Positions 43,195-54,577 of a stretch of 64,000 bases of DNA are shown one piece after another. Position 1 is the stretch's first letter, and every line of letters begins with the position of its first letter. Source of the stretch: Akkermansiaceae bacterium (lineage in GTDB: Bacteria; Verrucomicrobiota; Verrucomicrobiia; Verrucomicrobiales; Akkermansiaceae); assembly GCA_045106015.1 (NCBI GenBank), contig JBGCEE010000032.1, positions 1,668 through 65,667 of the forward strand, written 5' to 3'. Made by a program: the position numbers and the translations under genes. The notes below the pieces were generated by a model. The model worked only from the letters and a program-made list of their open reading frames with translations, made no database searches and had not been told where the DNA came from.

Positions 43195-44343
43195 ATGAGA
43201 ATCACTAAGCTTCATTTATACAAAGTCCCGCCTAGGTGGGTCTTTCTGGAAATTGAGACTGACGAAGGTGTGTCTGGCTGGGGTGAGCCAGTGATCGAAG
43301 GTCGAGCCGAAACCGTCATGGCGGCGGTTCGAGAACTCGAGCCGATGTTGATCGGTCAAGATCCAGAAAAGATCAATGATTTGTGGAATGCGATGTATCG
43401 AGGTGGTTTCTATCGAGGCGGTCCGATTCTTATGTCGGCGATTGCTGGGGTGGATCAAGCCCTTTGGGATCTGAAAGGCAAAGCCCTCGGTCAGCCCATC
43501 ACTGAGCTTTTGGGCGGGAGAGTTCGTGAGAAAATGAAGTCATACTGCTGGGTTGGTGGTGACAATCCCGAAGATGAAATATCGCAAATCGAGAAAGCAC
43601 GTGCGAAGGGACTGGACACATTCAAGTTGAACGGTTGTGGAGCGCTGCCGCAGATCGCCTCGCATCGAGAGATCGATGAAATCGTCAATCGTATCTCAGC
43701 GATCAGGGCGCACTTTGGAAACGAGATTGATTTTGCATTGGATTTTCACGGACGTGTTTCACTTTCCATGGCAAGAGTCCTTTTAAGGGAGTTGGAGACT
43801 ACGCGGCCCTTGTTCGTCGAGGAGCCAGTGCTCCCGGAATACGCGCGTTCCTACAGAGAGCTGGCCGATTTGACATCAATCCCGCTTGCCGCAGGGGAAC
43901 GTGCCTATAGCCGATTTGATTTTCTGCCCATTCTTGAGTCAGGCGGCTTGAGTATCATTCAACCGGACTTGTCGCATGCAGGCGGAATCACCGAGTGCCT
44001 AAAAATTGCGTCTTTGGCAGAAACTTTTCATGTTTCGCTGGCCCCACATTGCCCCCTTGGGCCGATCGCTTTGGCCTCTTGCCTCGCGGTGGATTTTATT
44101 TCACCGAACGCCGTGCTGCAGGAGCAATCAGTCGGCATCCACTATAACGACGGTGTTGAGCTGACGGATTATGTTCGGAACAAAACTGACTTTGGCTCCA
44201 AGGACGGCTGGATCGCACCGCTGCGGTTGCCTGGATTAGGCGTGGATATCGATAGAGAGTTTGTGATCGAACAGAGCAAGGTCAAACATGACTGGAAAAA
44301 TCCGGTGTGGCGCCACGAGGATGGTTCTATTTCAGAATGGTAA
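43195..44343 (+). CDS. dgoD: D-galactonate dehydratase
   Basis: [71 protein letters not shown]. Confidence 0.96.
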
Positions 44344-44347
44344 GAAT

Positions 44348-46063
44348 ATGATCAATCAATTTTCCGGAACTACTGCGAATATCGTAAATCACATGCAAAC
44401 CCTTGACTGGGTTGTCGTCGTATTCTGGGTGCTGGGCACGAGTTTGTTCGGCTATTGGTTTTCCAAATACGTGAAAACAGCCAGAGACTATCTGGTCGCA
44501 GGCCGCAAGCTGAAGTGGTGGCAGATTGGTATTGCGCAGGCTGCCGATTCGGTAGATGCAGGAGACTTTATTGCCATCGCCGGCATGGCGTATCTGAAAG
44601 GCTTCACAGGGCTTGGGTATATCTGGATTGGTATGGCCTTCGGAACCTACATTCTCGCACGCCATCTGGCACCGATGCTTTATCGAAGTGGAGTCGTGAC
44701 CAACGCAGAATTTCTCGAACTGCGTTTTACTCCCTCCATGCGAAAGGCTTCGGCATTGATTCAGATCCTTTATCGTTTCATTGCGATGGCTTTAGTAGGC
44801 TACGCGTTGGCCACCATGTTCAAGGTGGTGATGGGTGTTGAGATGACCCATGGAATTCTAATTTCCATGAGCATCACAATTCTTTATGTGTTCGCTTCTG
44901 GGCAGTTGGGTGTGGTGATGGCCGCGATACCTCAAGTTGCACTGATGCTGCTCGTTTCAGGTATCATCTTTTTTTCCGTGTATATGGATATCGGGGGTGT
45001 GGAGGGGTTCAAGAGTCATCTTCCGGAATATGGTGACATGTTGCACCTGACCTACTACACGGAGGACGGGCTGAACCCCTCACTTTACCTCTGGGGCCTA
45101 ATTCTTGTTCTCTTCACCTACCCATTGGTCAATCAGACCGTGGCGCAGCGAATCGTTTCGGCTGCAAGTGAATCGGATGCGCGGAAAGGCAGTATGATTT
45201 CACTGCTTCCTTGGTTCATTGTGACTGGCGTGGCGATCCTTGCTGGAGTGGTAGGAACGGTTCTAGTTCCGGACTTACCTGCGGAAACGAGAAACGACCT
45301 GTATCCCATTTACATGGTGAAATATCTATCGCCTGGGATTCTGGGCTTGGGAGTTGCCGCTTTGGTCGTTGGCAGCATGTCTACGGGTGCGGGAATTGGA
45401 ACCGCGATTTCTGGCCTCATGGCAAATGATGTTTTCAACATTCTTGATAGCGAGAAATACACGGCTGCGCAGAAATTAAGATGGAGCCGAATTTTTTCAA
45501 CCGCAGCGATTGTTTTCGGTTCGATCCTATCGTCACAGGTCTCGAACTTCGGAGGGATGGTTCCGTTCTATGTGACATTTTCGGGAACCTTTGTTCTTCC
45601 ACTCACGGTCCCGTATCTGGCCGCTGCCTTTTTCCCTCAAGCAAGCCGCCACTCAGCACTTGCATCGCTTATCACAGGGTGTGGGGTCGGACTGATCCTC
45701 TTTAATGCTACCGAGTACCTACCAGTCTACATGACACAACCGCAGTGCCGCCCGCTTTGGGTTCTCGGTGTGGCGCTCGTTACCATGGTAGTCTGGTCGC
45801 TTGTGGAAAATGCGGTGAAAGGTCCGATTCCAAAGAGTCAGCTTGCGAGCCGTTTCAATACCTTTGATTTTGGGAAAAACATGACGCCCGATGAGGCCAA
45901 AGAACTCATGGAAGACGGAGGTTTGGAAGACTGGAAAGCGAAGGCCAACATCCAGTATGAAACTCTTGGAATACGAAGTGATGTTCCTTGGTTTTCCCGC
46001 CCCGGGTTTTACGAAATTTCCACGGTTGTACTGATGATCGCCATCATGATCTGGCTCTGGTAA
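44348..46063 (+). CDS. Sodium:solute symporter (SSS) family transporter
   Basis: Many TM helices. YLVAGRKL, TNAEFLELRF, VNQTVAQRIVSA, LVVGSMST. Confidence 0.9.
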   Translation: MINQFSGTTANIVNHMQTLDWVVVVFWVLGTSLFGYWFSKYVKTARDYLVAGRKLKWWQIGIAQAADSVDAGDFIAIAGMAYLKGFTGLGYIWIGMAFGTYILARHLAPMLYRSGVVTNAEFLELRFTPSMRKASALIQILYRFIAMALVGYALATMFKVVMGVEMTHGILISMSITILYVFASGQLGVVMAAIPQVALMLLVSGIIFFSVYMDIGGVEGFKSHLPEYGDMLHLTYYTEDGLNPSLYLWGLILVLFTYPLVNQTVAQRIVSAASESDARKGSMISLLPWFIVTGVAILAGVVGTVLVPDLPAETRNDLYPIYMVKYLSPGILGLGVAALVVGSMSTGAGIGTAISGLMANDVFNILDSEKYTAAQKLRWSRIFSTAAIVFGSILSSQVSNFGGMVPFYVTFSGTFVLPLTVPYLAAAFFPQASRHSALASLITGCGVGLILFNATEYLPVYMTQPQCRPLWVLGVALVTMVVWSLVENAVKGPIPKSQLASRFNTFDFGKNMTPDEAKELMEDGGLEDWKAKANIQYETLGIRSDVPWFSRPGFYEISTVVLMIAIMIWLW

Positions 46064-46079
46064 AAAGACTCTCAAATTT

Positions 46080-47096
46080 ATGAAACATACTATTCAATCT
46101 CTCTTCGCTGTCGTGATGGCTATCACCTGCAGCGCTGAAAATTATAAGACCATTGGTTCCCTCGAAAGCCACGATCCACAGTTCGACAAGCTGGTCTCCC
46201 CGGATGCAAAAATCGAGATCATCGCCGAAGGCTTTTCATGGATTGAAGGCCCGTTGTGGTTACCCACTGAAAATTGCCTGATCTTTTCAAATATCCCTCC
46301 AAACAAGATTTGGAAATGGACAGAAAAGGAGGGCGCTACGGTGTATTTGGAAAAGAGCGGTTATCTTGGCAAAGTACCACGTCCCGGAGTGACCGGCGCC
46401 TTCGACCAAGCTGGATCAAACGGCCTCATTCTCAGCCCGCTTAATCAGCTTGTCCTTTGCCAGCATGGCTTACGTCAGATCGGTATGATGAAGGCTCCCT
46501 TGAATGACCCGAAGCCGAACTACATTCCTCTAACTGACCAGAACGACGAAGAGCAGCGCTACAACAGCCCGAACGATGGATGCTACCACCGCGATGGCAG
46601 TCTATTTTTCACGGATCCACCTTATGGACTGCCGAAAGGAGCCGACGATCCAACTAGAGAGACTGACTACTCTGGAGTCTACCGGCTTGCTAAAAATGGA
46701 AAGGTAACCCTGATCGATGATCAGTTGGAACGCCCGAACGGTATCGCTTTGTCACCGACGAACGACACGCTTTATGTGGCGAACTCTCACGGGCCGAACG
46801 CCATTTGGATGGCCTACGATCTCAATGAAGATGGCACGGTGAAGTCCAAGCGTGTTTTTAGAGATGTCACCAAAATGGTCGGAACGCGGAAAGGCATGCC
46901 GGATGGTCTGAAGGTTAATGATGCAGGGTATATTTTTGCGACAGCTCCTGGTGGTGTTTGGGTTCTCGACCCGAAAGGAAAGCATCTTGGAACCATTGTG
47001 ACGAAGGAGTTTGCAAGCAATGTGGCATTTGGCCCGGAGCAGAAAACTCTCTACATCACTGCGGACATGTTGCTTTTGCGCGTGAAGCTTAAGTAA
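46080..47096 (+). CDS. SMP-30 / gluconolactonase family protein, secreted
   Basis: Signal peptide. EGPLW, GSNGL, YNSPNDG, RPNGIALSP, PDGLKV. Confidence 0.93.
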   Translation: MKHTIQSLFAVVMAITCSAENYKTIGSLESHDPQFDKLVSPDAKIEIIAEGFSWIEGPLWLPTENCLIFSNIPPNKIWKWTEKEGATVYLEKSGYLGKVPRPGVTGAFDQAGSNGLILSPLNQLVLCQHGLRQIGMMKAPLNDPKPNYIPLTDQNDEEQRYNSPNDGCYHRDGSLFFTDPPYGLPKGADDPTRETDYSGVYRLAKNGKVTLIDDQLERPNGIALSPTNDTLYVANSHGPNAIWMAYDLNEDGTVKSKRVFRDVTKMVGTRKGMPDGLKVNDAGYIFATAPGGVWVLDPKGKHLGTIVTKEFASNVAFGPEQKTLYITADMLLLRVKLK

Positions 47097-47111
47097 GAGG
47101 AAGCCGACTGT

Positions 47112-48260
47112 ATGAAATTTCTAACAATTACTACTGTTGCAAGTTCTCTGCTTACGAATTTCGTCCTCGCAGACAATGAGAAACTGAGGGTAGGGAATGC
47201 GCAAAGCCCAGCTGAGGCAAAAGAAGAGCTCAAAGAATTTAAGAAAACATTTTCCAACCTTGATGAATGGAAGTTGCGCAAAGAGATCCTTCTCAAGGGC
47301 ATACTTCACGGTGCAGGCCTGTCAGAGCTCCCGCCGAAAACACCGCTCAAAGCAACGTTTTCGAATAAGCGAATTTACAAAGGTTATCAGATTGAGAGCG
47401 TGGCGTTTCAAAGTTCACCCGGATTCTATGTTACCGGCTCACTATACCGACCGACCGAATTTAGTGGTAACTTGGCAGGCATCTTGTGCCCGCACGGGCA
47501 CGGTGGCCGGTTCAAGGAAAGTCGACAGAAACGTTGTGCTGTACTCGCGCGTATGGGTGCTGCAGTTTTCCTTTTTGACATGGTAGGCTACGGAGATTCA
47601 AAGGAAGCCGGATGGTCGCACAAGGAGACTCCACAGGTGCTCAGGCTTCAGACATGGAACAGCATTCGAGCTCTCGACTTTATTCAATCTTTGCCGAAGG
47701 TGGATGCCGAAAGGATAGGAATGACCGGTTGCTCTGGGGGAGGCACGCAGACGTTTCTCCTAGCTGCGATCGACGAACGCGTTGCGGTGAGTGTTCCGGT
47801 TTGCCAAGTGTCCGCACATTTTTTTGGAGGTTGTGTTTGTGAAAGTGGAATGCCGATTCATCAGAGTCCGGAGCATAAGACGAACAACGCAGAAATCGCA
47901 GCACTAGCCGCGCCGCGCCCACAAATGCTTGTCTCCAACGGTGACGATTGGACCAAGCACAATCCTCGCGTGGAATTTCCCTACATCAAGTTTGTCTATG
48001 AGTTGTATGGTGCTGCGGATCGAATCGAACACGCGCACTTTGCCGATGAAAAACACGACTACGGGGAATCAAAGCGCATGGCCGCCTATCCATTCTTGGC
48101 AAAACATTTGAAACTCAATTTGAAGGCGGTGATGGACGAGGATGAAAAAATCGACGAGTCCTTTGTTGAAACAGAAGATCGCTCTGCAATGTTAGTTTTC
48201 GGAAAAGACCATCTCTATCCAAAAAACTCGGTGGCACCAAACACTCCCTTACCCGAATAG
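47112..48260 (+). CDS. Secreted alpha/beta hydrolase (acetyl-xylan-esterase-like)
   Basis: Signal peptide. [17 protein letters not shown], nucleophile motif [21 protein letters not shown]. Confidence 0.85.
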
Positions 48261-48317
48261 ATTGGTCCGTTTGGCAGGAGAAAATAACCCGTCGCATTTC
48301 TATTCGAATTCAAAATA

Positions 48318-48371
48318 GTTCTTGTCCTTTCGTAACTTTCAGGATTTACTGAAAACAACGAAAGGAAGAAC
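48318..48371 (+). promoter_or_regulatory. Nested palindrome: candidate operator and RBS-occluding hairpin
   Basis: GTTCTT/AAGAAC (6 bp), CCTTTCGT/ACGAAAGG (8 bp) and TTTCAG-N6-CTGAAA (6 bp) nested. The 3' arm contains AAAGGA and ends 2 nt before the ATG at 48374. Confidence 0.6.
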
Positions 48372-48373
48372 CA

Positions 48374-48832
48374 ATGAAACTAACGAATCGAATGGAGTGG
48401 ATCGAAGTGTATTATGACGGCCGGTGCGGGATGTGTTGTAGTTTTCACGAATGGATCAATCGCCAGCCGCGGGCTTTTAAAATCGTCTTCATTCCGTATC
48501 AGGCAGAAAAGGCAGAGCAGGTCTTCCCCGGTATTGGTAGCCTCGACCCCTCTCGGGAAATGGTGGTTCGAACGAGTGACCATGAGCTTTTCCGGGGAGC
48601 TGAAGCTTGGGTTTGGTGCTTGAATAGTTGTGCGAACCATCAGCGGGCAGCGCAGAAGTTGAGTGGTCCAAAACTTCTTCCTCTTGCCATACGTGCTTGT
48701 CGGGTTCTTGCGGCAAATCGCCACAGCCTCAGCAAAGTATTTTTTTACGGGAAGGACAAGGTAGTGAGGGAGAAGCTTCATCAGATGCCAGCGCCCGATT
48801 GTAAGAAGGGCCATTGTGCGACTCAGAGTTGA
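48374..48832 (+). CDS. DCC1-like thiol-disulfide oxidoreductase (DUF393)
   Basis: VYYDGRCGMC (DGxCxxC), FIPYQ, GAEAW. Confidence 0.9.
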   Translation: MKLTNRMEWIEVYYDGRCGMCCSFHEWINRQPRAFKIVFIPYQAEKAEQVFPGIGSLDPSREMVVRTSDHELFRGAEAWVWCLNSCANHQRAAQKLSGPKLLPLAIRACRVLAANRHSLSKVFFYGKDKVVREKLHQMPAPDCKKGHCATQS

Positions 48833-48860
48833 ATGTGAAGAAAAATTGAAAGGCTGAATA

Positions 48861-49265
48861 GTGAATCTCCAAGATATACATCTTCTACTTCGTCTGGCTG
48901 GTCTTGTGCTATGCGGATTGGTTCTCGCGAATTTTGTTGCGGCGAAGCGCTTTCAGTATGCTGAAAATCTTCGGTCAACGGACGTGATCATTCGCCAGAT
49001 TTTTCATGTCCATAGCGCGTATATCATCGCTATCATTGGTGGGTTGGCAGTTCTGTGTTTGGGATCGCCAGAGCTCTTAACCGAAGGAAAATTCAGCCGT
49101 GTGTTCTGCATCTTCTTCGCCCTGTTCTGGAGCAGCCGAGTGCTCGTTCAGTTGAAGTATTACGACAGGGATCTACGCCGTTCGAACCGCTTCTGGGATG
49201 TCTTTTTCCTCTGCGTATTTGGTTTCCTTGGTGTCGTCTTCACCCTAACTGCACTGCTACCATGA
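48861..49265 (+). CDS. Hypothetical 4-TM membrane protein (paralog A)
   Basis: GTG start, 134 aa. IRQIFHVHSAYI and FWSSRVLVQLKYYD motifs are shared with the next gene. Confidence 0.8.
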   Translation: MNLQDIHLLLRLAGLVLCGLVLANFVAAKRFQYAENLRSTDVIIRQIFHVHSAYIIAIIGGLAVLCLGSPELLTEGKFSRVFCIFFALFWSSRVLVQLKYYDRDLRRSNRFWDVFFLCVFGFLGVVFTLTALLP

Positions 49266-49696
49266 AAAATTTGTTAGAAATTGGAACGCTGATCGGAGGC
49301 TGGTCGTTGGTCATCCTATGTATCGGTAGTTTTTGGATTCCTCAGAAACTGGGATGGAAGGAGAAGCTGGCTGGGTTGACTCCGCTGATGCGAGAGCTTT
49401 GGTGGACCTACTCAATCTACGTCTTGAGCAGTCATGTATTCTTTTCGGTCTTACTTCTGTTTCATCGTGATTGGCTAATGGGTGGGAGCGGATCGGCCAT
49501 TGCGATGAACGTTTTTATGCTGCTTTGGTGGTCGGTGAGACTCTGGTTGCAGTTCTTTGGATTCGATTTCTCTGAGGTCGAAAAAAATTTGAGCAACCGG
49601 CTAGCGAAGGGCCTACTGACGCTACTTTTTATTGGGCTCGTGGTTCTGAATGGCGGGCTACTTTGTTGGAATGTTGGTTGGTTCGAATTTCTTTGA
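49262..49696 (+). CDS. Hypothetical 4-TM membrane protein (paralog B)
   Basis: ATGA overlap with paralog A. LMRELWWTYSIYV and WWSVRLWLQFFGFD motifs. Confidence 0.8.
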   Translation: MKNLLEIGTLIGGWSLVILCIGSFWIPQKLGWKEKLAGLTPLMRELWWTYSIYVLSSHVFFSVLLLFHRDWLMGGSGSAIAMNVFMLLWWSVRLWLQFFGFDFSEVEKNLSNRLAKGLLTLLFIGLVVLNGGLLCWNVGWFEFL

Positions 49697-49700
49697 ACCG

Positions 49701-50606
49701 ATGATTGGTCTTATCGCATCGCTGACGCTCGTAGGCGTTCTTGCTGGTCCTGCTTTAAGGAAAGTTCAGCGAGTCTCGTGGAGGCGACTGTGTGGATGGG
49801 CTGTCTTGTTGCTACTCGTTTGGTGTGCGGACTCTTTGATGGCCGAAAGTGATCCGGTCCTACGCATGATTGGGATCTGTTGTGTCTTACTCGGTGGGAT
49901 GAAGGGACTGGTGTATGCGGAGTGGGCAGGAGATCGTCCACTGGCTCTAGGTCGATATTTGTTGTTCGCGTTCTGCTGGTTTGGAATGGATCCGAGTGCC
50001 TTTCAAAAGCGTCGGACAGGGCTGAGTTGGAAGGCGGATATCACAGTTGGCCTGACTCTCATGTTGGTTGGCACCTTATTGGGATGGCTGGTTTGGGTAT
50101 CTGGGTGGCGTCAGCTTTTGGTCATGTTTTTACCCATGAGTTTGGGATTTCACTTTGGAGCTCTGAGAGTTCTCAAAGGAGTCCTGCGATTATCGGGATT
50201 TCCTGTTCGAACGCTTTTCCCGAACTTGCTGGAGGCTCGTGGAGTAGGTGATTTTTGGAGCCGGAAGTGGAACGTGGGCTATTCGCAAATGATGCAACGT
50301 GTGGTGGGGCGTCCGATCACGGCGGTTGCGGGATCGAATTCAGGATTGATGGTCGTTTTCCTTGTTTCAGGACTTTTGCATGAACTGGCCATCACCTTAC
50401 CTGTGCGATCGGGGTTCGGATTGCCGACCCTGTTTTTCGTCGTCCACGGTCTGCTGGTCTTAGCTGAAAAGCACTGGAAAATTCCCATGGGTCGGGTGCC
50501 AGCTCTATTGCTTGTTGGGTTACCGCTTGGCCTCTTGTTCCCAGAGGATTTTAGAGACCAAATCATTGTCAGGTGCCTGTCGGTTTTCGAATATTTACCG
50601 GGGTAA
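49701..50606 (+). CDS. MBOAT family O-acyltransferase (wax synthase-like MBOAT_2)
   Basis: DFWSRKWNVGYSQMM and FLVSGLLHELA (catalytic His). Multiple TM helices. Confidence 0.88.
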   Translation: MIGLIASLTLVGVLAGPALRKVQRVSWRRLCGWAVLLLLVWCADSLMAESDPVLRMIGICCVLLGGMKGLVYAEWAGDRPLALGRYLLFAFCWFGMDPSAFQKRRTGLSWKADITVGLTLMLVGTLLGWLVWVSGWRQLLVMFLPMSLGFHFGALRVLKGVLRLSGFPVRTLFPNLLEARGVGDFWSRKWNVGYSQMMQRVVGRPITAVAGSNSGLMVVFLVSGLLHELAITLPVRSGFGLPTLFFVVHGLLVLAEKHWKIPMGRVPALLLVGLPLGLLFPEDFRDQIIVRCLSVFEYLPG

Positions 50607-50621
50607 GAACGCTTGTGCGTC

Positions 50622-50649
50622 GGGAAATTCCGTGCTCGAAGAATTTCCC
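50622..50649. promoter_or_regulatory. Perfect 9-bp inverted repeat upstream of the metal ATPase
   Basis: GGGAAATTC-N10-GAATTTCCC. Imperfect pairing extends outward to CTTGT/ACAAG (50612-50664). Confidence 0.45.
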
Positions 50650-50672
50650 ACGTGGCGCTACAAGGGTCGTGT

Positions 50673-53036
50673 ATGAAGGGGGAAGAGAGATCGTCCGATT
50701 TGCTTGGAGATGTGATTCATGACTTAGCAGATCAGCAGGGTGTCGTGAAAGTTCGCGCGGACCCCGAGCATGGGCGTCTCGAAATTGATTTTGACCCAAA
50801 AGAGATGAGCGAAGGCGAACTGCGAAAAATCGCCGGTGAGGATGCTAGCGAGTTGGCGGAGGAATTGAGGAAGTTAAGTTTTCGATTGGAGAATTCGGGA
50901 TGCGAAGCAGGTGCGCTTCGATTGGAGAAAAAGGTTAGCAATGTCCATGGTGTTCGGCATGCGACGGCAACTTACATCGGTAAGGTCCTGTGCCTGACTT
51001 TTGATCAGTCCATGGCGGCGGAGGACGAAGTGGTTGCTGGTATTCAGCAAGCTGGGGCTGAAGTAAAACCACTGGAATTTGGTAAAGGGGGTAAGACTTC
51101 GTTTGCCGACAAACTAAAAGCGGGTGAGCTTAACGAGGAAATCTCGTGTGGTCTTGGATTTGCTTTTTTGATTGCTGCGTTTGTGTCCGAGAAAATTGCT
51201 GGCATGGGTGTTTTGGCCATTGGATTTTATGTGGGTGCGTATGTATTCGCAGGCCAGGAGGGAGTCAGATCTGCGATTGCGTCTCTTAAGGAGAAGGTCT
51301 TGGACGTGGATGTGTTGATGGTACTTGCAGCCATCGGTGCGGCCATCGTCGGTGCTCCATTTGAAGGTGCACTGCTTTTATTCCTTTTCAGTTTTTCGAA
51401 CGTTCTACAACGCTATGCGATGGAGCGGACACATCGGGCAATCGAGTCTTTGCTCACGCTTCGGCCGGATGAGGCGTTGGTGAAGCGTGGGGGTAGGACG
51501 GTCCTTGTTCCCGTGGAGGACCTAGAGATCGGGGAAACGGTTGTGGTAAAGCCGGGAGAGCAGATTCCGGTGGATGGGGAGCTTTCCGAGGGTAGCACGC
51601 ATGTGAATGAATCCTCGCTGACTGGTGAGTCGATGCCAGTGGCGAAACACAAGGGTAGCGAACTCTTTGCAGGGACGATGAATCAGAGCGGAGGTATTGA
51701 ACTTAGGGTAACGAAGCGCTCCGAGGACTCGGCACTGGCGCGCATGGTTAAGCTTGTCGCCGAGGCTCAAGCTGAGAAGTCGAAAACCCAACGTTTTTTG
51801 GAAACTGCCGAGCAGTATTATGCGATGGGAGTCATTCTTTTTACGATAGGTGTATTCTTTTTACCTTGGTTGATTTGGGAAGAATCATTTTCCCAATCGT
51901 TTTACCGAGCGATGACAGTGATGGTAGTGGCTTCTCCCTGTGCGCTGATCATCAGTACTCCTGCAACGGTTTTGTCAGCGATTGGTGGGGCAGCAAGAAG
52001 GGGGATTCTTGTCAAAGGAGGTTCGCATTTGGAGCAGGCAGCAACGATTGATATAGTCGCGGTGGATAAGACAGGAACCCTCACAGAAGGAAAGCCTTCA
52101 CTGACGGAAATCGTGACCTTGCAAGGGGCTTCAATAATGTCGCCATCGCTGGGTGAAGATGCTCGAAGTCTTCTCCGTATGGCTGCGGGATTGGAAACAA
52201 GATCAGAACATCCGCTTGCGCACGCGATCGCAGATGCTGCTTCTTCCTTGGGTTTAGATATTCCAGAGGCATCCGAGTTTCAGTCGATAACTGGCAAAGG
52301 AGCCGAGGCGACTCTGGAATCCGAACGCTATGTCATCGGTAGTGAAAGATGGTTTCGCGATTCGCTGGCAGAAAATGTTGAAGAGCTTTCGAGCTCCGCC
52401 CATGAATTTCAGAAGAAAGGGCGAACTTGCGTTTGGCTTGGGGTGCGAAAGGGGAACAAGCTTTCGGTAAAAGCGGTATTCGCTATGGCGGATACGGTTC
52501 GCCAAGAAGCGAAGACTCTCGCGAAACAGCTTCATGTTTTGGGGATCAAAAAATTCGTCATGCTCACGGGGGATCAGAAGGTGGTCGCTGATACGATTGC
52601 TGCTGAGGTTGGGATTGATGAAGTTCATGCGGAGATGCTTCCCGAGAATAAACTGGAGGTGATTCGCGAACTGAAGAAAGAAGGAAAAGTCCTGATGATT
52701 GGGGATGGCGTGAACGACGCGCCGGCCTTGGCGACATCGGACCTGAGTATGGCGATGGGTGCGGCGGGAACGGATGTTGCGATGGAAACCGCAGATGTCG
52801 TGCTGATGGGGGATCGTTTGGAATCGATTCCACTGCTTTTGAATCATGCGAGGAGAGCCAGACGTGTTCTTATACAGAATCTCGCTTTCGCGACAGGCGT
52901 GATCATTGTTCTTGTGATCGGTGCGCTTGGATTTGCTTTGCCATTGCCCGTGGGTGTCGTGGGACATGAAGGCAGCACGGTGTTAGTTTGTCTCAATGGC
53001 TTGCGCCTTCTTTTGATCGGCAGGTCTGCAGTGTAG
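50673..53036 (+). CDS. Heavy-metal P-type ATPase, P1B-4 signature
   Basis: SPC (VASPCALII), TGES, DKTGT, SEHP, GDGVND and HEGST in the last TM. Confidence 0.93.
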   Translation: MKGEERSSDLLGDVIHDLADQQGVVKVRADPEHGRLEIDFDPKEMSEGELRKIAGEDASELAEELRKLSFRLENSGCEAGALRLEKKVSNVHGVRHATATYIGKVLCLTFDQSMAAEDEVVAGIQQAGAEVKPLEFGKGGKTSFADKLKAGELNEEISCGLGFAFLIAAFVSEKIAGMGVLAIGFYVGAYVFAGQEGVRSAIASLKEKVLDVDVLMVLAAIGAAIVGAPFEGALLLFLFSFSNVLQRYAMERTHRAIESLLTLRPDEALVKRGGRTVLVPVEDLEIGETVVVKPGEQIPVDGELSEGSTHVNESSLTGESMPVAKHKGSELFAGTMNQSGGIELRVTKRSEDSALARMVKLVAEAQAEKSKTQRFLETAEQYYAMGVILFTIGVFFLPWLIWEESFSQSFYRAMTVMVVASPCALIISTPATVLSAIGGAARRGILVKGGSHLEQAATIDIVAVDKTGTLTEGKPSLTEIVTLQGASIMSPSLGEDARSLLRMAAGLETRSEHPLAHAIADAASSLGLDIPEASEFQSITGKGAEATLESERYVIGSERWFRDSLAENVEELSSSAHEFQKKGRTCVWLGVRKGNKLSVKAVFAMADTVRQEAKTLAKQLHVLGIKKFVMLTGDQKVVADTIAAEVGIDEVHAEMLPENKLEVIRELKKEGKVLMIGDGVNDAPALATSDLSMAMGAAGTDVAMETADVVLMGDRLESIPLLLNHARRARRVLIQNLAFATGVIIVLVIGALGFALPLPVGVVGHEGSTVLVCLNGLRLLLIGRSAV

Positions 53037-53586: not shown

Positions 53587-54504
53587 TCAAACCATTGCAG
53601 CGCGTGCGAGTTCCTCACGACGGAAATTCGTTGGAGAATTCCCGGTGAAACGAGCAAAGCTGCGGTTGAACTGGGAAAGTGATTGGTAACCGATTTGGAA
53701 TGCGATTTCGGACACACGTGTTTCAGAGCGGAGCAGTTCTTTTTTCGCCCATTCGATGCGGCGACGGTTGACGTAGTCGGTGAGGGTCAGGCTGGTGGCG
53801 TCTTTGAAAACGCGGCAGAAATGAGACTCACTGAGCCCTGCCTGTCTGGCGACCAGCGAGAGGGGGAGCGGGTCGGCCAAGTTATTATCGATAAATTTTT
53901 TCGCGCGAGCTACGGCCGCAGGTTCGCTACCATTGCTGATGATCGCTAGCTTTTCGGCATGTTTGCCGAGTTGGCTGGCGAAGGTGGCGAGCAAGGTGAC
54001 CATGCTTTGGTAGCGCTCGGGTTCGACAACGGCGGTCTGTAAGTAGGCTTCCTTTAGTGCTGTGGCATCGCTTTCGCTAAGGCCTTGGCGCAGAAGTGTT
54101 TTTGTAACGGTTTCGAATTTTTTTGGAGTGGGAGTTTTATGAAAGACTTGTCCGGTGCGAAGCATTCCGATCAGGACACCGCTGCAAGAGACTGGGACCG
54201 CAGTGGCGGCCATGCCGGTGAAACAATGGCAGGTGGTTGGGCCGTGAATTTTTGCCTCTTCGTTTAGGCGGTTGTTTACCGAGATACAAGATTTGCAGGC
54301 GGTGGAGCAGAGGTTGAGTTTTTCACAAAAGGCGCTGCCGTTCGTAGAGTTTCTACAGGTGTCTTCGATTCCTGAATCTGGATCGACAAAGCGTAGCGGG
54401 AGCCCAGTAGCGCATCTGAATGCGTTTTGGTAGGTCGTGAAAAGCTCCGAACCTAGCACTTTTTCGTGCATGGCCTTCTTGAACTGTTCCGGATCGTTAA
54501 TCAT
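53587..54504 (-). CDS. AraC family regulator with N-terminal PocR-type sensor domain
   Basis: AF..ATGLPL, FC...C..C, CHCFTGM...AVPV, LRTGQVF. C-terminal AraC double HTH (LSESHFCRVFK, IAFQIGYQSLSQFNRSF). Confidence 0.92.
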   Translation of the reverse strand: MINDPEQFKKAMHEKVLGSELFTTYQNAFRCATGLPLRFVDPDSGIEDTCRNSTNGSAFCEKLNLCSTACKSCISVNNRLNEEAKIHGPTTCHCFTGMAATAVPVSCSGVLIGMLRTGQVFHKTPTPKKFETVTKTLLRQGLSESDATALKEAYLQTAVVEPERYQSMVTLLATFASQLGKHAEKLAIISNGSEPAAVARAKKFIDNNLADPLPLSLVARQAGLSESHFCRVFKDATSLTLTDYVNRRRIEWAKKELLRSETRVSEIAFQIGYQSLSQFNRSFARFTGNSPTNFRREELARAAMV

Positions 54505-54577
54505 GTGTAAGCTCAAATTTCCTGAGAACGTGAGGGAAACTAGATGAGTTTCCGATCTTGTGCAACTTTTCATGAAC

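What the first reader, a model, noticed from the sequence alone, without database searches (positions are those of the whole stretch)
48374..50606. Uncharacterised four-gene membrane system: DCC1 oxidoreductase, tandem paralogous 4-TM proteins and an MBOAT acyltransferase
Seen: a tight operon (gaps 28, -4, 4 nt). The two small membrane proteins are mutual paralogs: RFQYAENLRSTDVIIRQIFHVHSAYI vs KLGWKEKLAGLTPLMRELWWTYSIYV, and FWSSRVLVQLKYYD vs WWSVRLWLQFFGFD. The MBOAT keeps its catalytic His and DCC1 keeps DGxCxxC. MBOAT_2 enzymes acylate hydrophobic alcohols, such as wax esters and sterols, in eukaryotes, and DCC1 function is unclear (established). Inference: a heterodimeric membrane protein plus a thiol redox protein supports acylation of an unknown lipid or pigment, probably under stress control through the palindromic leader. 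This is the best candidate for a new biochemical system here.
Basis: partly seen in the sequence, partly recalled or inferred. Interest (0 to 1): 0.72.

Follow-up and report, generated by a model that had tools for sequence, protein, structure and literature searches.

The report
MarR-controlled MBOAT acyltransferase module with partners
The four genes are a real, widely conserved but uncharacterised operon in which a DGAT1-like membrane acyltransferase always travels with a small four-helix membrane protein of an unannotated family, often with a DCC1 thiol protein, under a conserved repressor-type DNA operator.

Summary
The window holds DCC1-like (48374-48832), small membrane protein A (48861-49265), its paralog B (49262-49696) and an MBOAT_2 enzyme (49701-50606), with gaps of 28, -4 and 4 nt.

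The genes form a functional unit:
- In 76 Verrucomicrobiales genomes, a small-protein gene lies directly upstream of the MBOAT in 65/65 testable loci. DCC1 lies upstream in 59/65. The flanking genes differ.
- Other lineages carry natural fusions: MBOAT_2-small, small-MBOAT_2, small-small and DCC1-MBOAT_2.

The MBOAT model folds like DGAT1 and keeps the WN...H-E catalytic motif. A and B belong to a large family (941 clusters at 50% identity) that matches no Pfam or NCBIfam model. It has a near-invariant W-x2-R-x3-Q motif and no conserved cysteine. A and B are ancient paralogs: A groups with a DCC1- or YndJ-adjacent class, B with the MBOAT-adjacent class.

The "palindromic leader" is most likely a DNA operator, TTTCAG-N6-CTGAAA, overlapping the -10 region. 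In related loci it flanks an adjacent MarR gene, and soil lineages use the variant TTTCTG-N6-CAGAAA.

The substrate and the role of DCC1 remain unknown. I found nothing on this gene set in the paper library I could search. I rate it a new variant of a known kind, of good interest.

The parts
48322..48327 (+). -35-like hexamer TTGTCC of the operon promoter (inferred)
   Evidence: It lies exactly 9 nt upstream of the palindrome. In 40 of 67 Verrucomicrobial sites a TTG-starting hexamer (often TTGACA) sits at this same offset. With a 17-nt spacer the -10 falls at 48345-48350, inside the palindrome centre. Inference only; there is no transcript data.
48337..48354 (.). Operator-like palindrome TTTCAG-GATTTA-CTGAAA, proposed binding site of a MarR-family repressor encoded outside the window
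   Evidence: It matches the pattern exactly; 0.10 matches are expected by chance. The same 6-N6-6 palindrome heads the orthologous operon in about 56 fetched loci. It occurs twice, flanking the MarR gene, wherever a MarR gene is adjacent (L039, L052, L054, L055, L059, L060, L062, L063, L067, L041, L142). Soil lineages carry the symmetric variant TTTCTG-N6-CAGAAA at the same places. The centres are A/T-rich and -10-like.
48374..48832 (+). DCC1-like thiol protein (152 aa), cytoplasmic, with DGRCGMC and a clade-specific C-terminal C-x4-C
   Evidence: PF04134 E 3.4e-12. CxxC is conserved in 59/61 Verrucomicrobial and 24/25 soil module-associated DCC1 domains. DCC1 is upstream of the MBOAT in 59/65 Verrucomicrobial loci and fused to the MBOAT N-terminus in at least 9 soil loci and in L085.
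48861..49265 (+). Small 4-TM protein A (134 aa), DCC1/YndJ-adjacent subfamily of an unannotated family
   Evidence: No Pfam or NCBIfam match passes threshold. Homologous to B. Clusters with small proteins that follow DCC1 or precede YndJ outside Verrucomicrobia. Absent from some orthologous operons (L010, L031, L037, L044, L057).
49262..49696 (+). Small 4-TM protein B (144 aa), MBOAT-adjacent subfamily; proposed obligate partner subunit of the MBOAT
   Evidence: The AF2 model has pLDDT 90 and four long helices. It has no significant PDB fold match. A small-protein gene is directly upstream of the MBOAT in 65/65 Verrucomicrobial loci. Domain fusions with MBOAT_2 occur in both orders (P0290, P0301, P0390, P0342). 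The family has 941 representative clusters and a near-invariant G...R-x2-F...W-x2-R-x3-Q motif.
49701..50606 (+). MBOAT_2 acyltransferase (301 aa), DGAT1-like catalytic subunit
   Evidence: PF13813 E 3.4e-10. A profile search of PDB hits the DGAT1 catalytic segment at E 1.7e-4. The AF2 model (pLDDT 86) matches plant and human DGAT1 in Foldseek at E 4e-6 with query-normalised TM-score (TMq) 0.58-0.65. K68, H151, W190-N191, S223 and H227 are invariant across divergent relatives.

Best explanation
This is an operon for a multi-subunit, cytoplasm-facing membrane O-acyltransferase, switched by a dedicated MarR-family repressor.

The 301-aa MBOAT_2 protein is the catalytic subunit. It has a DGAT1-like fold and most likely uses the His/Asn pair to move a fatty acyl group from acyl-CoA onto the hydroxyl of a membrane-embedded lipid. 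The acceptor could be a lipid alcohol, an isoprenoid or a quinol; its identity is unknown.

Small protein B is its obligate 4-helix partner subunit. B's conserved R/W/R/Q/D cluster is predicted to lie at the cytoplasmic membrane interface, where CoA and the DCC1 protein would approach.

DCC1 is an accessory cytoplasmic CxxC protein that docks at the MBOAT N-terminal side. Small protein A is a second, dispensable 4-helix subunit that travels with DCC1. DCC1's thiols probably act on the small-molecule substrate or an intermediate, not on a disulfide in its partners.

Transcription starts at a promoter whose -10 lies inside the palindrome TTTCAG-N6-CTGAAA. A MarR-type repressor encoded elsewhere in this genome binds there until an unknown ligand releases it.

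Shown: gene conservation, the fusions, fold and motif conservation, and operator conservation. Inferred: the complex, the topology, the acyl-CoA donor, repression and the substrate class.
For: Module conservation:
- The order DCC1-A-B-MBOAT recurs in 76 Verrucomicrobiales loci with unrelated flanks.
- A small-protein gene is upstream in 65/65 loci and DCC1 in 59/65.

Rosetta-stone fusions:
- MBOAT_2+small in P0290, P0301 and P0390. The P0301 and P0390 clusters have members from independent sources, one named as Planctomycetota.
- Small+MBOAT_2 in P0342 and small+small in P0258.
- DCC1+MBOAT_2 in L085 and in at least 9 soil loci.

Enzyme:
- Pfam MBOAT_2, a DGAT1 sequence hit over the FW-x-RWN...SGLLHE segment, and Foldseek top hits all DGAT1 with TMq about 0.6.
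- The catalytic residues are invariant.

Thiol logic:
- The DCC1 CxxC is about 95% conserved.
- No Cys column exceeds 50% in the MBOAT or 36% in the small proteins.

Topology is self-consistent. The cytoplasmic DCC1 is fused one TM before the conserved K-helix. The window MBOAT has two TMs there, separated by an RKVQRVSWRR loop. P0342 joins the small protein's C-terminus directly to the K-helix.

Operator:
- It sits at a fixed 9-nt distance from a TTGACA-like hexamer.
- It is duplicated around adjacent MarR genes.
- It is retained at the operon head even when DCC1 is missing (L047, L077, L025).
- A co-varying half-site version occurs in soil lineages.
Against: - No physical interaction was modelled or measured.
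- No transcript data exist for this organism.
- The substrate is unknown, and no lipid-biosynthesis gene in the window points to one.
- DCC1 is missing from 6/65 Verrucomicrobial loci and 23/39 soil loci, and A from several, so neither is essential to the core.
- The 64/64 adjacency in soil loci is inflated. The query contained the small domain and the best 80 matches were kept.
- No MarR gene is in the 64-kb window.
- The palindrome could also fold as an RNA hairpin overlapping the RBS (-24 kcal/mol over 75 nt). This is not formally excluded.
Confidence: 0.6

Rival explanations
1. Coupled reduction and acylation. DCC1 with the Cys-less 4-helix protein A works like a split VKOR or DsbB. The membrane bundle holds a quinone or epoxide head group, and the DCC1 CxxC reduces it. 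The MBOAT-B pair then esterifies the new hydroxyl, for example making an acyl-menaquinol.
For: DCC1-like domains are also fused to HTTM, the vitamin-K-dependent carboxylase-like membrane domain (paper 10.64898/2026.08.19.745780). A plant DUF393 protein is listed among plastoglobule proteins; that plastoglobules are rich in prenylquinones is my own knowledge. The CxxC is conserved, yet no partner cysteine is conserved. A-type small proteins travel with DCC1. The B model has weak structural likeness to a VKOR-like bundle, TMq 0.56. SDR genes recur in extended versions of the module.
Against: The VKOR match is not significant (E 4.6, probability 0.28). A and B lack the defining CxxC of VKOR and DsbB. 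A is absent from DCC1-B-MBOAT operons. No quinone-biosynthesis gene is linked. This is entirely inferential.
Confidence: 0.12
2. Inducible detoxification. The MarR repressor senses a toxic hydrophobic alcohol or phenol, and the MBOAT complex esterifies it to neutralise it or to prepare it for export. The substrate is a xenobiotic, not an endogenous lipid.
For: A dedicated MarR regulator and operator are ancestral to the module. From general knowledge, MarR-family regulators commonly respond to phenolic or lipophilic compounds. An EamA-type exporter gene lies directly upstream of MarR in L080-L083. Fungal MBOAT_2 members acetylate secondary metabolites (general knowledge of PF13813).
Against: Extended versions of the module look biosynthetic. 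They carry two SDRs, a methyltransferase, an SRPBCC-like protein, YndJ and DUF2071. The catalytic core is strongly conserved across phyla, which fits a fixed endogenous substrate. No ligand is known.
Confidence: 0.15
3. A Dlt-like acyl relay. DCC1 carries the acyl group as a cysteine thioester, as DltC carries D-alanine. The MBOAT passes it across the membrane, and the small proteins act as intermediate acceptors like DltX, for an extracytoplasmic target.
For: The architecture is the same: a cytoplasmic thiol-bearing protein, an MBOAT and small membrane proteins. DCC1 is fused at the cytoplasmic N-terminus of the MBOAT in many loci.
Against: No nucleophile (Ser, Thr, Tyr, Cys or Lys) is universally conserved in the small proteins; the conserved residues are G, R, F, W, R, Q and D. 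There is no loading ligase and no periplasmic transferase in the conserved module. The MBOAT is DGAT1-like, not DltB-like. DCC1 is dispensable in many loci.
Confidence: 0.06
4. The adjacency has no shared function, or the small ORFs are not real genes.
For: None beyond the absence of experimental data.
Against: The small proteins are conserved at 55-79% identity across 76 genomes. There are 941 family clusters. The structure prediction is confident. There are fusions of four kinds, and translational coupling through the ATGA overlap.
Confidence: 0.02

Closest known systems
DGAT1 / SOAT (ACAT) clade of MBOAT enzymes, and the eukaryotic MBOAT_2 wax, sterol and terpenoid acyltransferases (PF13813)
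   Same: Same fold (Foldseek TMq 0.58-0.65 to plant and human DGAT1). Same catalytic segment, FW-x-RWN ... S-x-x-x-H-E. Pfam MBOAT_2 membership. By analogy, acyl-CoA is the donor and a hydrophobic alcohol in the membrane is the acceptor.
   Different: It is much shorter (301 aa against about 490-550) and bacterial. It is encoded with an obligate separate 4-helix subunit and frequently with, or fused to, a DCC1 thiol domain. Neither partner is, to my knowledge, known for the eukaryotic enzymes. The substrate is unknown.
Dlt system (DltB MBOAT + DltC carrier + DltX small membrane protein)
   Same: An MBOAT that works with a small membrane protein and a cytoplasmic thiol-bearing protein, encoded in one operon.
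   Different: A different MBOAT clade. There is no phosphopantetheine carrier, no loading ligase and no DltD-like transferase. The small proteins have four helices and no conserved nucleophile.
HTTM-DCC1-like fusion proteins (bacterial GGCX-like membrane proteins)
   Same: A DCC1-like CxxC domain attached to a polytopic lipid-handling membrane enzyme. Here it is attached to, or encoded beside, MBOAT_2.
   Different: The membrane enzyme differs (HTTM against MBOAT_2), the fusion order differs, and no 4-helix partner was reported there.
MarR-family autoregulated operons with palindromic operators over the promoter
   Same: A 6-N6-6 palindrome overlapping the -10. It is duplicated around the regulator gene where that gene is adjacent.
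   Different: In this window the regulator gene is not linked. The operator sequence TTTC(A/T)G-N6-C(T/A)GAAA is not one I know from any characterised MarR regulator. The ligand is unknown.

Membership tests
MBOAT superfamily, MBOAT_2 (PF13813) | Profile match above the curated threshold | tested here: met
   40.5 bits against a cut-off of 25, E 3.4e-10.
MBOAT superfamily, MBOAT_2 (PF13813) | Invariant His in a hydrophobic helix, plus a conserved Asn about 35 residues upstream | tested here: met
   H227 (SGLLHE) and W190-N191 are invariant across Verrucomicrobial, soil and fusion relatives. They align with the DGAT1 WN...FHE segment.
MBOAT superfamily, MBOAT_2 (PF13813) | Polytopic MBOAT fold | tested here: met
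   The AF2 model has pLDDT 86. The top 8 Foldseek PDB hits are all DGAT1, with probability 1.00 and TMq 0.58-0.65.
MBOAT superfamily, MBOAT_2 (PF13813) | Acyl-CoA-dependent O-acyl transfer | not testable with these tools
   Needs an enzyme assay or lipidomics.
DCC1-like thiol-disulfide oxidoreductase (PF04134) | Profile match above threshold, and the D-x-x-C-x-x-C motif | tested here: met
   48 bits against 27.8. DGRCGMC in 57 of 61 Verrucomicrobial orthologues.
DCC1-like thiol-disulfide oxidoreductase (PF04134) | Thiol-disulfide oxidoreductase activity | not testable with these tools
   No solved relative was found by sequence. The activity needs biochemistry.
MarR-regulated operon | Palindromic operator overlapping the promoter, shared with loci where a MarR gene is adjacent | tested here: met
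MarR-regulated operon | Cognate regulator gene present | tested here: not met
   A module-MarR HMM finds nothing in the 64-kb window. The regulator is presumably elsewhere in the genome, as in L001, where it sits about 4 kb away with an SDR gene.
VKOR / DsbB-type 4-helix quinone oxidoreductases (considered for A and B) | Membrane CxxC and loop cysteines | tested here: not met
   No Cys column exceeds 36% across 225 small proteins. The fold match is not significant.
Dlt-type MBOAT relay | Phosphopantetheinyl carrier protein, loading ligase, DltX-like small protein with a conserved acceptor residue, and a DltD-like transferase | tested here: not met
   None of these domains is in the module. The small proteins have no conserved nucleophile.
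AlgI/PatA-type polysaccharide O-acetylation (the label some sources give relatives) | A partner periplasmic SGNH or AlgX-type transferase encoded alongside | tested here: not met
   No such gene is among the recurrent neighbours. The closest structures are DGAT1, not DltB or AlgI types.
MAPEG (UniRef label on an A orthologue) | Match to a MAPEG profile | tested here: not met
   No MAPEG hit for A or B, or for 70 diverse members.
Known anti-phage defence systems | Match to a PADLOC model | tested here: not met
   No hit for any of the four proteins.

The most novel reading that the evidence does not exclude
DCC1-like proteins are the long-sought soluble reductase partners of lipid- and quinone-handling membrane enzymes. 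Here a Cys-less 4-helix protein presents a membrane quinone or epoxide to the DCC1 CxxC, which makes this a split, VKOR-like reductase. The DGAT1-like MBOAT with its own 4-helix subunit then esterifies the resulting quinol. The product would be a previously unknown class of acylated isoprenoid quinols in Verrucomicrobia, Planctomycetes and soil bacteria, made under MarR control.
Probability: 0.1. Interest if true: 0.85.

Novelty: new variant of a known kind. Interest (0 to 1): 0.66.

Why it matters
Three gaps become testable together.

1. Bacterial MBOAT_2 enzymes have, to my knowledge, no known substrate. This module gives a compact, inducible four-gene unit to express.

2. DCC1/DUF393 is a widespread family whose biochemical role is, as far as I know, unsettled. 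Its repeated fusion to an MBOAT, and to HTTM elsewhere, points to a role beside lipid-handling membrane enzymes.

3. A large family of 4-helix membrane proteins (at least 941 clusters at 50% identity) has no Pfam or NCBIfam model. It now has a concrete proposed role as an MBOAT (and YndJ) partner subunit.

The conserved operator also gives a handle for finding the regulator's ligand and regulon, and so the physiological cue.

Tried and rejected
- Pfam and NCBIfam gave nothing valid for A or B. The only hits were sub-threshold (Sre, SPC25, a daptide family). Scanning 70 diverse members found only sporadic chance hits.
- PDB sequence search found nothing for A/B. DCC1 gave only a chance IscB hit. 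YndJ gave nothing meaningful.
- Foldseek with the B model found no significant match; TolQ, MS4A, sigma-2 and VKOR-like hits were all at E > 0.5.
- Rfam found nothing credible in 47500-51500. The terminator and promoter scans were uninformative.
- The RNA-leader reading of the palindrome is not favoured. The arms are invariant rather than co-varying. The element sits at a fixed distance from a -35 hexamer. It also flanks MarR genes whose ATG follows within 4-6 nt.
- I considered that the small proteins might be the missing N-terminal helices of a split MBOAT. I rejected this because the 301-aa protein alone aligns over the DGAT1 core.
- The Dlt-like acceptor role for the small proteins is rejected for lack of a conserved nucleophile.
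- Literature searches found no paper on this gene combination.
- No RNA-seq run holds the locus.
- PADLOC found no match.
- The heavy-metal ATPase downstream is not part of the module. The downstream genes differ in L001 and L003.
Full report
**1. What is in the window**

ORF listing and direct reading confirm four co-directional genes:
- DCC1-like, 48374-48832, 152 aa.
- Small protein A, 48861-49265, GTG start, 134 aa.
- Small protein B, 49262-49696, 144 aa. Its ATG overlaps A's TGA in ATGA.
- MBOAT_2, 49701-50606, 301 aa, 4 nt after B's stop.

Pfam places the first gene in PF04134 (E 3.4e-12) and the last in PF13813 (E 3.4e-10), both above gathering scores. A and B match no Pfam or NCBIfam model above its threshold. 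A and B are homologous: BLASTP gives E 1e-7, and a profile-profile comparison of their orthologue sets gives 95.7% probability and E 8.5e-9.

**2. Organism and orthologues**

The best relatives of the MBOAT are 61-67% identical. The named ones are Luteolibacter, Haloferula and Akkermansiaceae, in Verrucomicrobiota. The DNA is found in plant-associated and marine metagenome runs. No RNA run holds it.

**3. The genes are a unit**

A scan of species-representative genomes returned 76 loci, nearly all labelled Verrucomicrobiota (a few as Opitutaceae or simply uncultured bacterium). I ran tblastn and HMM searches on them.
- A small-protein gene lies directly upstream of the MBOAT in 65/65 loci with enough flank. 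By tblastn it is B-type wherever the sequence allows typing.
- DCC1 lies upstream in 59/65.
- A is usually present between DCC1 and B, but is missing in DCC1-B-MBOAT variants such as L010, L031, L037, L044 and L057.
- The flanking genes differ between loci, so the four genes move as a module.

The downstream P-type ATPase and the upstream sugar-related genes of this window are not conserved neighbours.

**4. The small proteins define a large, unannotated family that fuses with the MBOAT**

A profile of A and B searched against 1.84 billion representatives found 941 clusters at E <= 1e-3 and 357 at E <= 1e-10. The near-invariant positions are:
- a Gly in helix 1;
- R-x2-F at the start of helix 2;
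- W-x2-R-x3-Q-x4-D at the end of helix 3.

There is no conserved cysteine. Seventy diverse members match no Pfam family.

Among the hits are natural fusions:
- MBOAT_2 followed by the small domain: P0290, P0301 and P0390. The P0301 and P0390 clusters have members from independent sources, and one P0301-cluster member is annotated as Planctomycetota.
- The small domain followed by MBOAT_2: P0342.
- A tandem small-small protein: P0258.

A metagenome scan seeded with the fusion class found more than 544 relatives, mostly from soil and peat. In the 80 loci kept, the MBOAT is followed by a small-protein gene in 64/64 testable cases. This count is biased, because the query included the small domain.

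**5. DCC1 is also fused to the MBOAT**

In L085 a 359-aa protein carries a full DCC1-like domain (residues 16-107, DGDCSFC) followed by a shortened MBOAT_2. At least nine soil loci have the same fusion in one ORF. Others have DCC1 as the gene immediately upstream. In total, 16/39 soil loci with enough flank have DCC1.

The CxxC is kept in 59/61 Verrucomicrobial and 24/25 soil DCC1 domains. In contrast, no cysteine column exceeds 50% in the MBOAT or 36% in the small proteins. The DCC1 thiols therefore probably do not target a conserved disulfide in their partners.

The literature I could search records DCC1-like domains fused to HTTM, a GGCX-like membrane domain (10.64898/2026.08.19.745780). 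It also lists a plant DUF393 protein among plastoglobule proteins. Both are lipid or quinone settings.

**6. A and B are ancient paralogs with different company**

I clustered 227 small-protein domains.
- Window B falls with the MBOAT-adjacent class.
- Window A falls with a class that, outside Verrucomicrobia, follows DCC1 or precedes YndJ (L080, L115, L126, L132, L142).

Where DCC1 is fused to or abuts the MBOAT, no A-type gene is present. This argues against a simple A-B heterodimer. It suggests two pairs instead: B with the MBOAT, and A with DCC1 (or with YndJ where that is present).

**7. The enzyme**

The AF2 model of the MBOAT (pLDDT 86) matches only DGAT1 structures significantly (E down to 4e-6, TMq 0.58-0.65). 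The profile also aligns with the DGAT1 catalytic stretch. K68, H151, W190-N191, S223 and H227 (followed by E or D at 228) are invariant over very divergent relatives. An acyl-CoA:lipid-alcohol O-acyltransferase is thus the best-supported chemistry by analogy. It is not demonstrated.

The B model (pLDDT 90) is a four-helix bundle with a short amphipathic helix. It has no significant structural relative.

Topology can be inferred from three observations:
- The cytoplasmic DCC1 domain is fused one helix before the conserved K-helix.
- The window enzyme has two helices there, separated by the strongly basic loop RKVQRVSWRR.
- P0342 joins the small domain's C-terminus straight to the K-helix.

Together with the positive-inside rule, this places the small proteins' conserved R/W/R/Q/D cluster at the cytoplasmic interface. 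This step is inference.

**8. The palindrome is a DNA operator**

The element TTTCAG-GATTTA-CTGAAA lies at 48337-48354 (0.10 chance matches to the pattern expected in the window). It recurs upstream of the orthologous operon in about 56 loci. Several features point to a protein-binding site:
- In 40 of 67 sites a TTG-starting hexamer (often TTGACA) sits exactly 9 nt upstream of the palindrome.
- The 6-nt centres are A/T-rich (TAAATA, TATTTA), so a 17-nt spacer puts the -10 inside the palindrome.
- In a Verrucomicrobial subclade the operon is MarR-DCC1-(extra ORF)-A-B-MBOAT-SDR39U1-like. There the palindrome occurs twice, before MarR (whose ATG follows within 4-6 nt) and between MarR and DCC1.
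- In L001 a second copy precedes a MarR-like gene and an SDR39U1-like gene about 4 kb away.
- The soil locus L142 has the order MarR-DCC1-SDR-small-YndJ-SDR-MBOAT-small and carries the same palindrome. Most soil loci carry the symmetric variant TTTCTG-N6-CAGAAA at the same two places.
- When DCC1 is absent, the operator sits in front of A (L047, L077, L025).

This is the behaviour of an operator for a dedicated, autoregulated MarR-type repressor. The window has the operator but no such regulator within 64 kb. An RNA hairpin that hides the RBS is possible on paper but is not favoured.

**9. Wider neighbourhood**

Recurrent neighbours across lineages are:
- MarR, in 30 loci.
- An SDR39U1-like epimerase with a DUF1731 domain, in 17 loci. 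It matches PDB 4b4o at E 3e-29.
- YndJ, in 13 loci.
- NmrA-like SDRs, in 11 loci.

One long operon (L085) also has three DUF2071 genes, a methyltransferase and an SRPBCC-like protein. This reads as a small-molecule or lipid pathway of which the window keeps a four-gene core. None of these families has a documented function in the literature I could search.

**10. Explanation and rivals**

Best-supported explanation: a MarR-repressed operon for an MBOAT_2-B acyltransferase core, with DCC1 (plus A) as a cytoplasmic thiol accessory, esterifying a membrane lipid alcohol from acyl-CoA. Confidence is about 0.6 for this general scheme.

Rivals:
- Reduction-then-acylation of a quinone-like lipid by a split VKOR-like DCC1/A unit (0.12).
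- Inducible detoxification of a xenobiotic alcohol or phenol (0.15).
- A Dlt-like acyl relay (0.06).
- No shared function (0.02).

**11. Novelty**

The domains MBOAT_2 and DCC1 are known, and MBOATs with accessory proteins are known (Dlt, Alg). Three things appear to be undescribed: the obligate 4-helix partner family, the DCC1-MBOAT linkage including fusions, and the conserved MarR operator. I therefore rate this a new variant of a known kind, with good but not exceptional interest (0.66).

Noticed in passing
window 48951-48966: A second TTTCAG-N4-CTGAAA match lies inside gene A, encoding FQYAEN. The spacing differs from the operator (4 nt against 6) and the peptide is not conserved at the DNA level in orthologues. 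It is probably chance, though only 0.1 matches are expected in the window.
   Followed up: partly
window 48800-48817 (DCC1 residues C143 and C148): Verrucomicrobial DCC1 proteins carry a C-terminal extension with a conserved C-x4-C pair that soil and other module DCC1 domains lack. It could be a second redox or metal site.
   Followed up: partly
L039 2586-2611, L052 2871-2896 and similar loci: The module-linked MarR genes start 4-6 nt after the operator. With the -10 inside the palindrome, they would be leaderless or nearly leaderless mRNAs.
   Followed up: no
L002 5882-6906 (Akkermansiaceae CP059069): The same genome has a second MBOAT paralog without DCC1 or A. It is preceded only by the 3' remnant of a B gene and surrounded by transposase genes (DDE, Y1, IS91). 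This looks like a transposed, truncated copy of the module.
   Followed up: partly
L003 4723-5157; L039 3702-4121; L066 3483-3863: Some orthologous operons carry an extra small ORF (126-145 aa, no Pfam match, unrelated to A and B) between DCC1 and A.
   Followed up: partly
L080 6396-7418; L142 2565-3925; L085 7875-8822: YndJ-like polytopic proteins are also immediately preceded by a small protein of the same 4-helix family. The family may therefore serve as a partner for more than one kind of membrane enzyme.
   Followed up: partly
L001 1372-2538; L080 9819-10856; L082 10220-11221: Rce1-like (CPBP) intramembrane protease genes lie within a few kb of the module in three unrelated loci. An EamA transporter gene precedes MarR in L080-L083.
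   Followed up: no
L003 7126-9768: In Luteolibacter arcticus, an 880-aa AMP-binding plus Acyl_transf_3 fusion protein lies directly downstream of the MBOAT. It is a possible acyl-activating neighbour but is not conserved elsewhere.
   Followed up: no
window 50613-53036 and 53587-54573 (-): Downstream lies a heavy-metal-type P-type ATPase. Its likely ATG is at 50674, and a promoter-like site at 50566-50595 lies inside the MBOAT 3' end. Beyond it is a divergent PocR-AraC regulator. These are not part of the conserved module.
   Followed up: partly
window 44288-48260: The upstream genes are a sodium:solute symporter, an SMP-30/gluconolactonase-like protein and a glucuronyl/acetyl-xylan-esterase-like hydrolase. 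This is a carbohydrate-use cluster unrelated to the module.
   Followed up: partly
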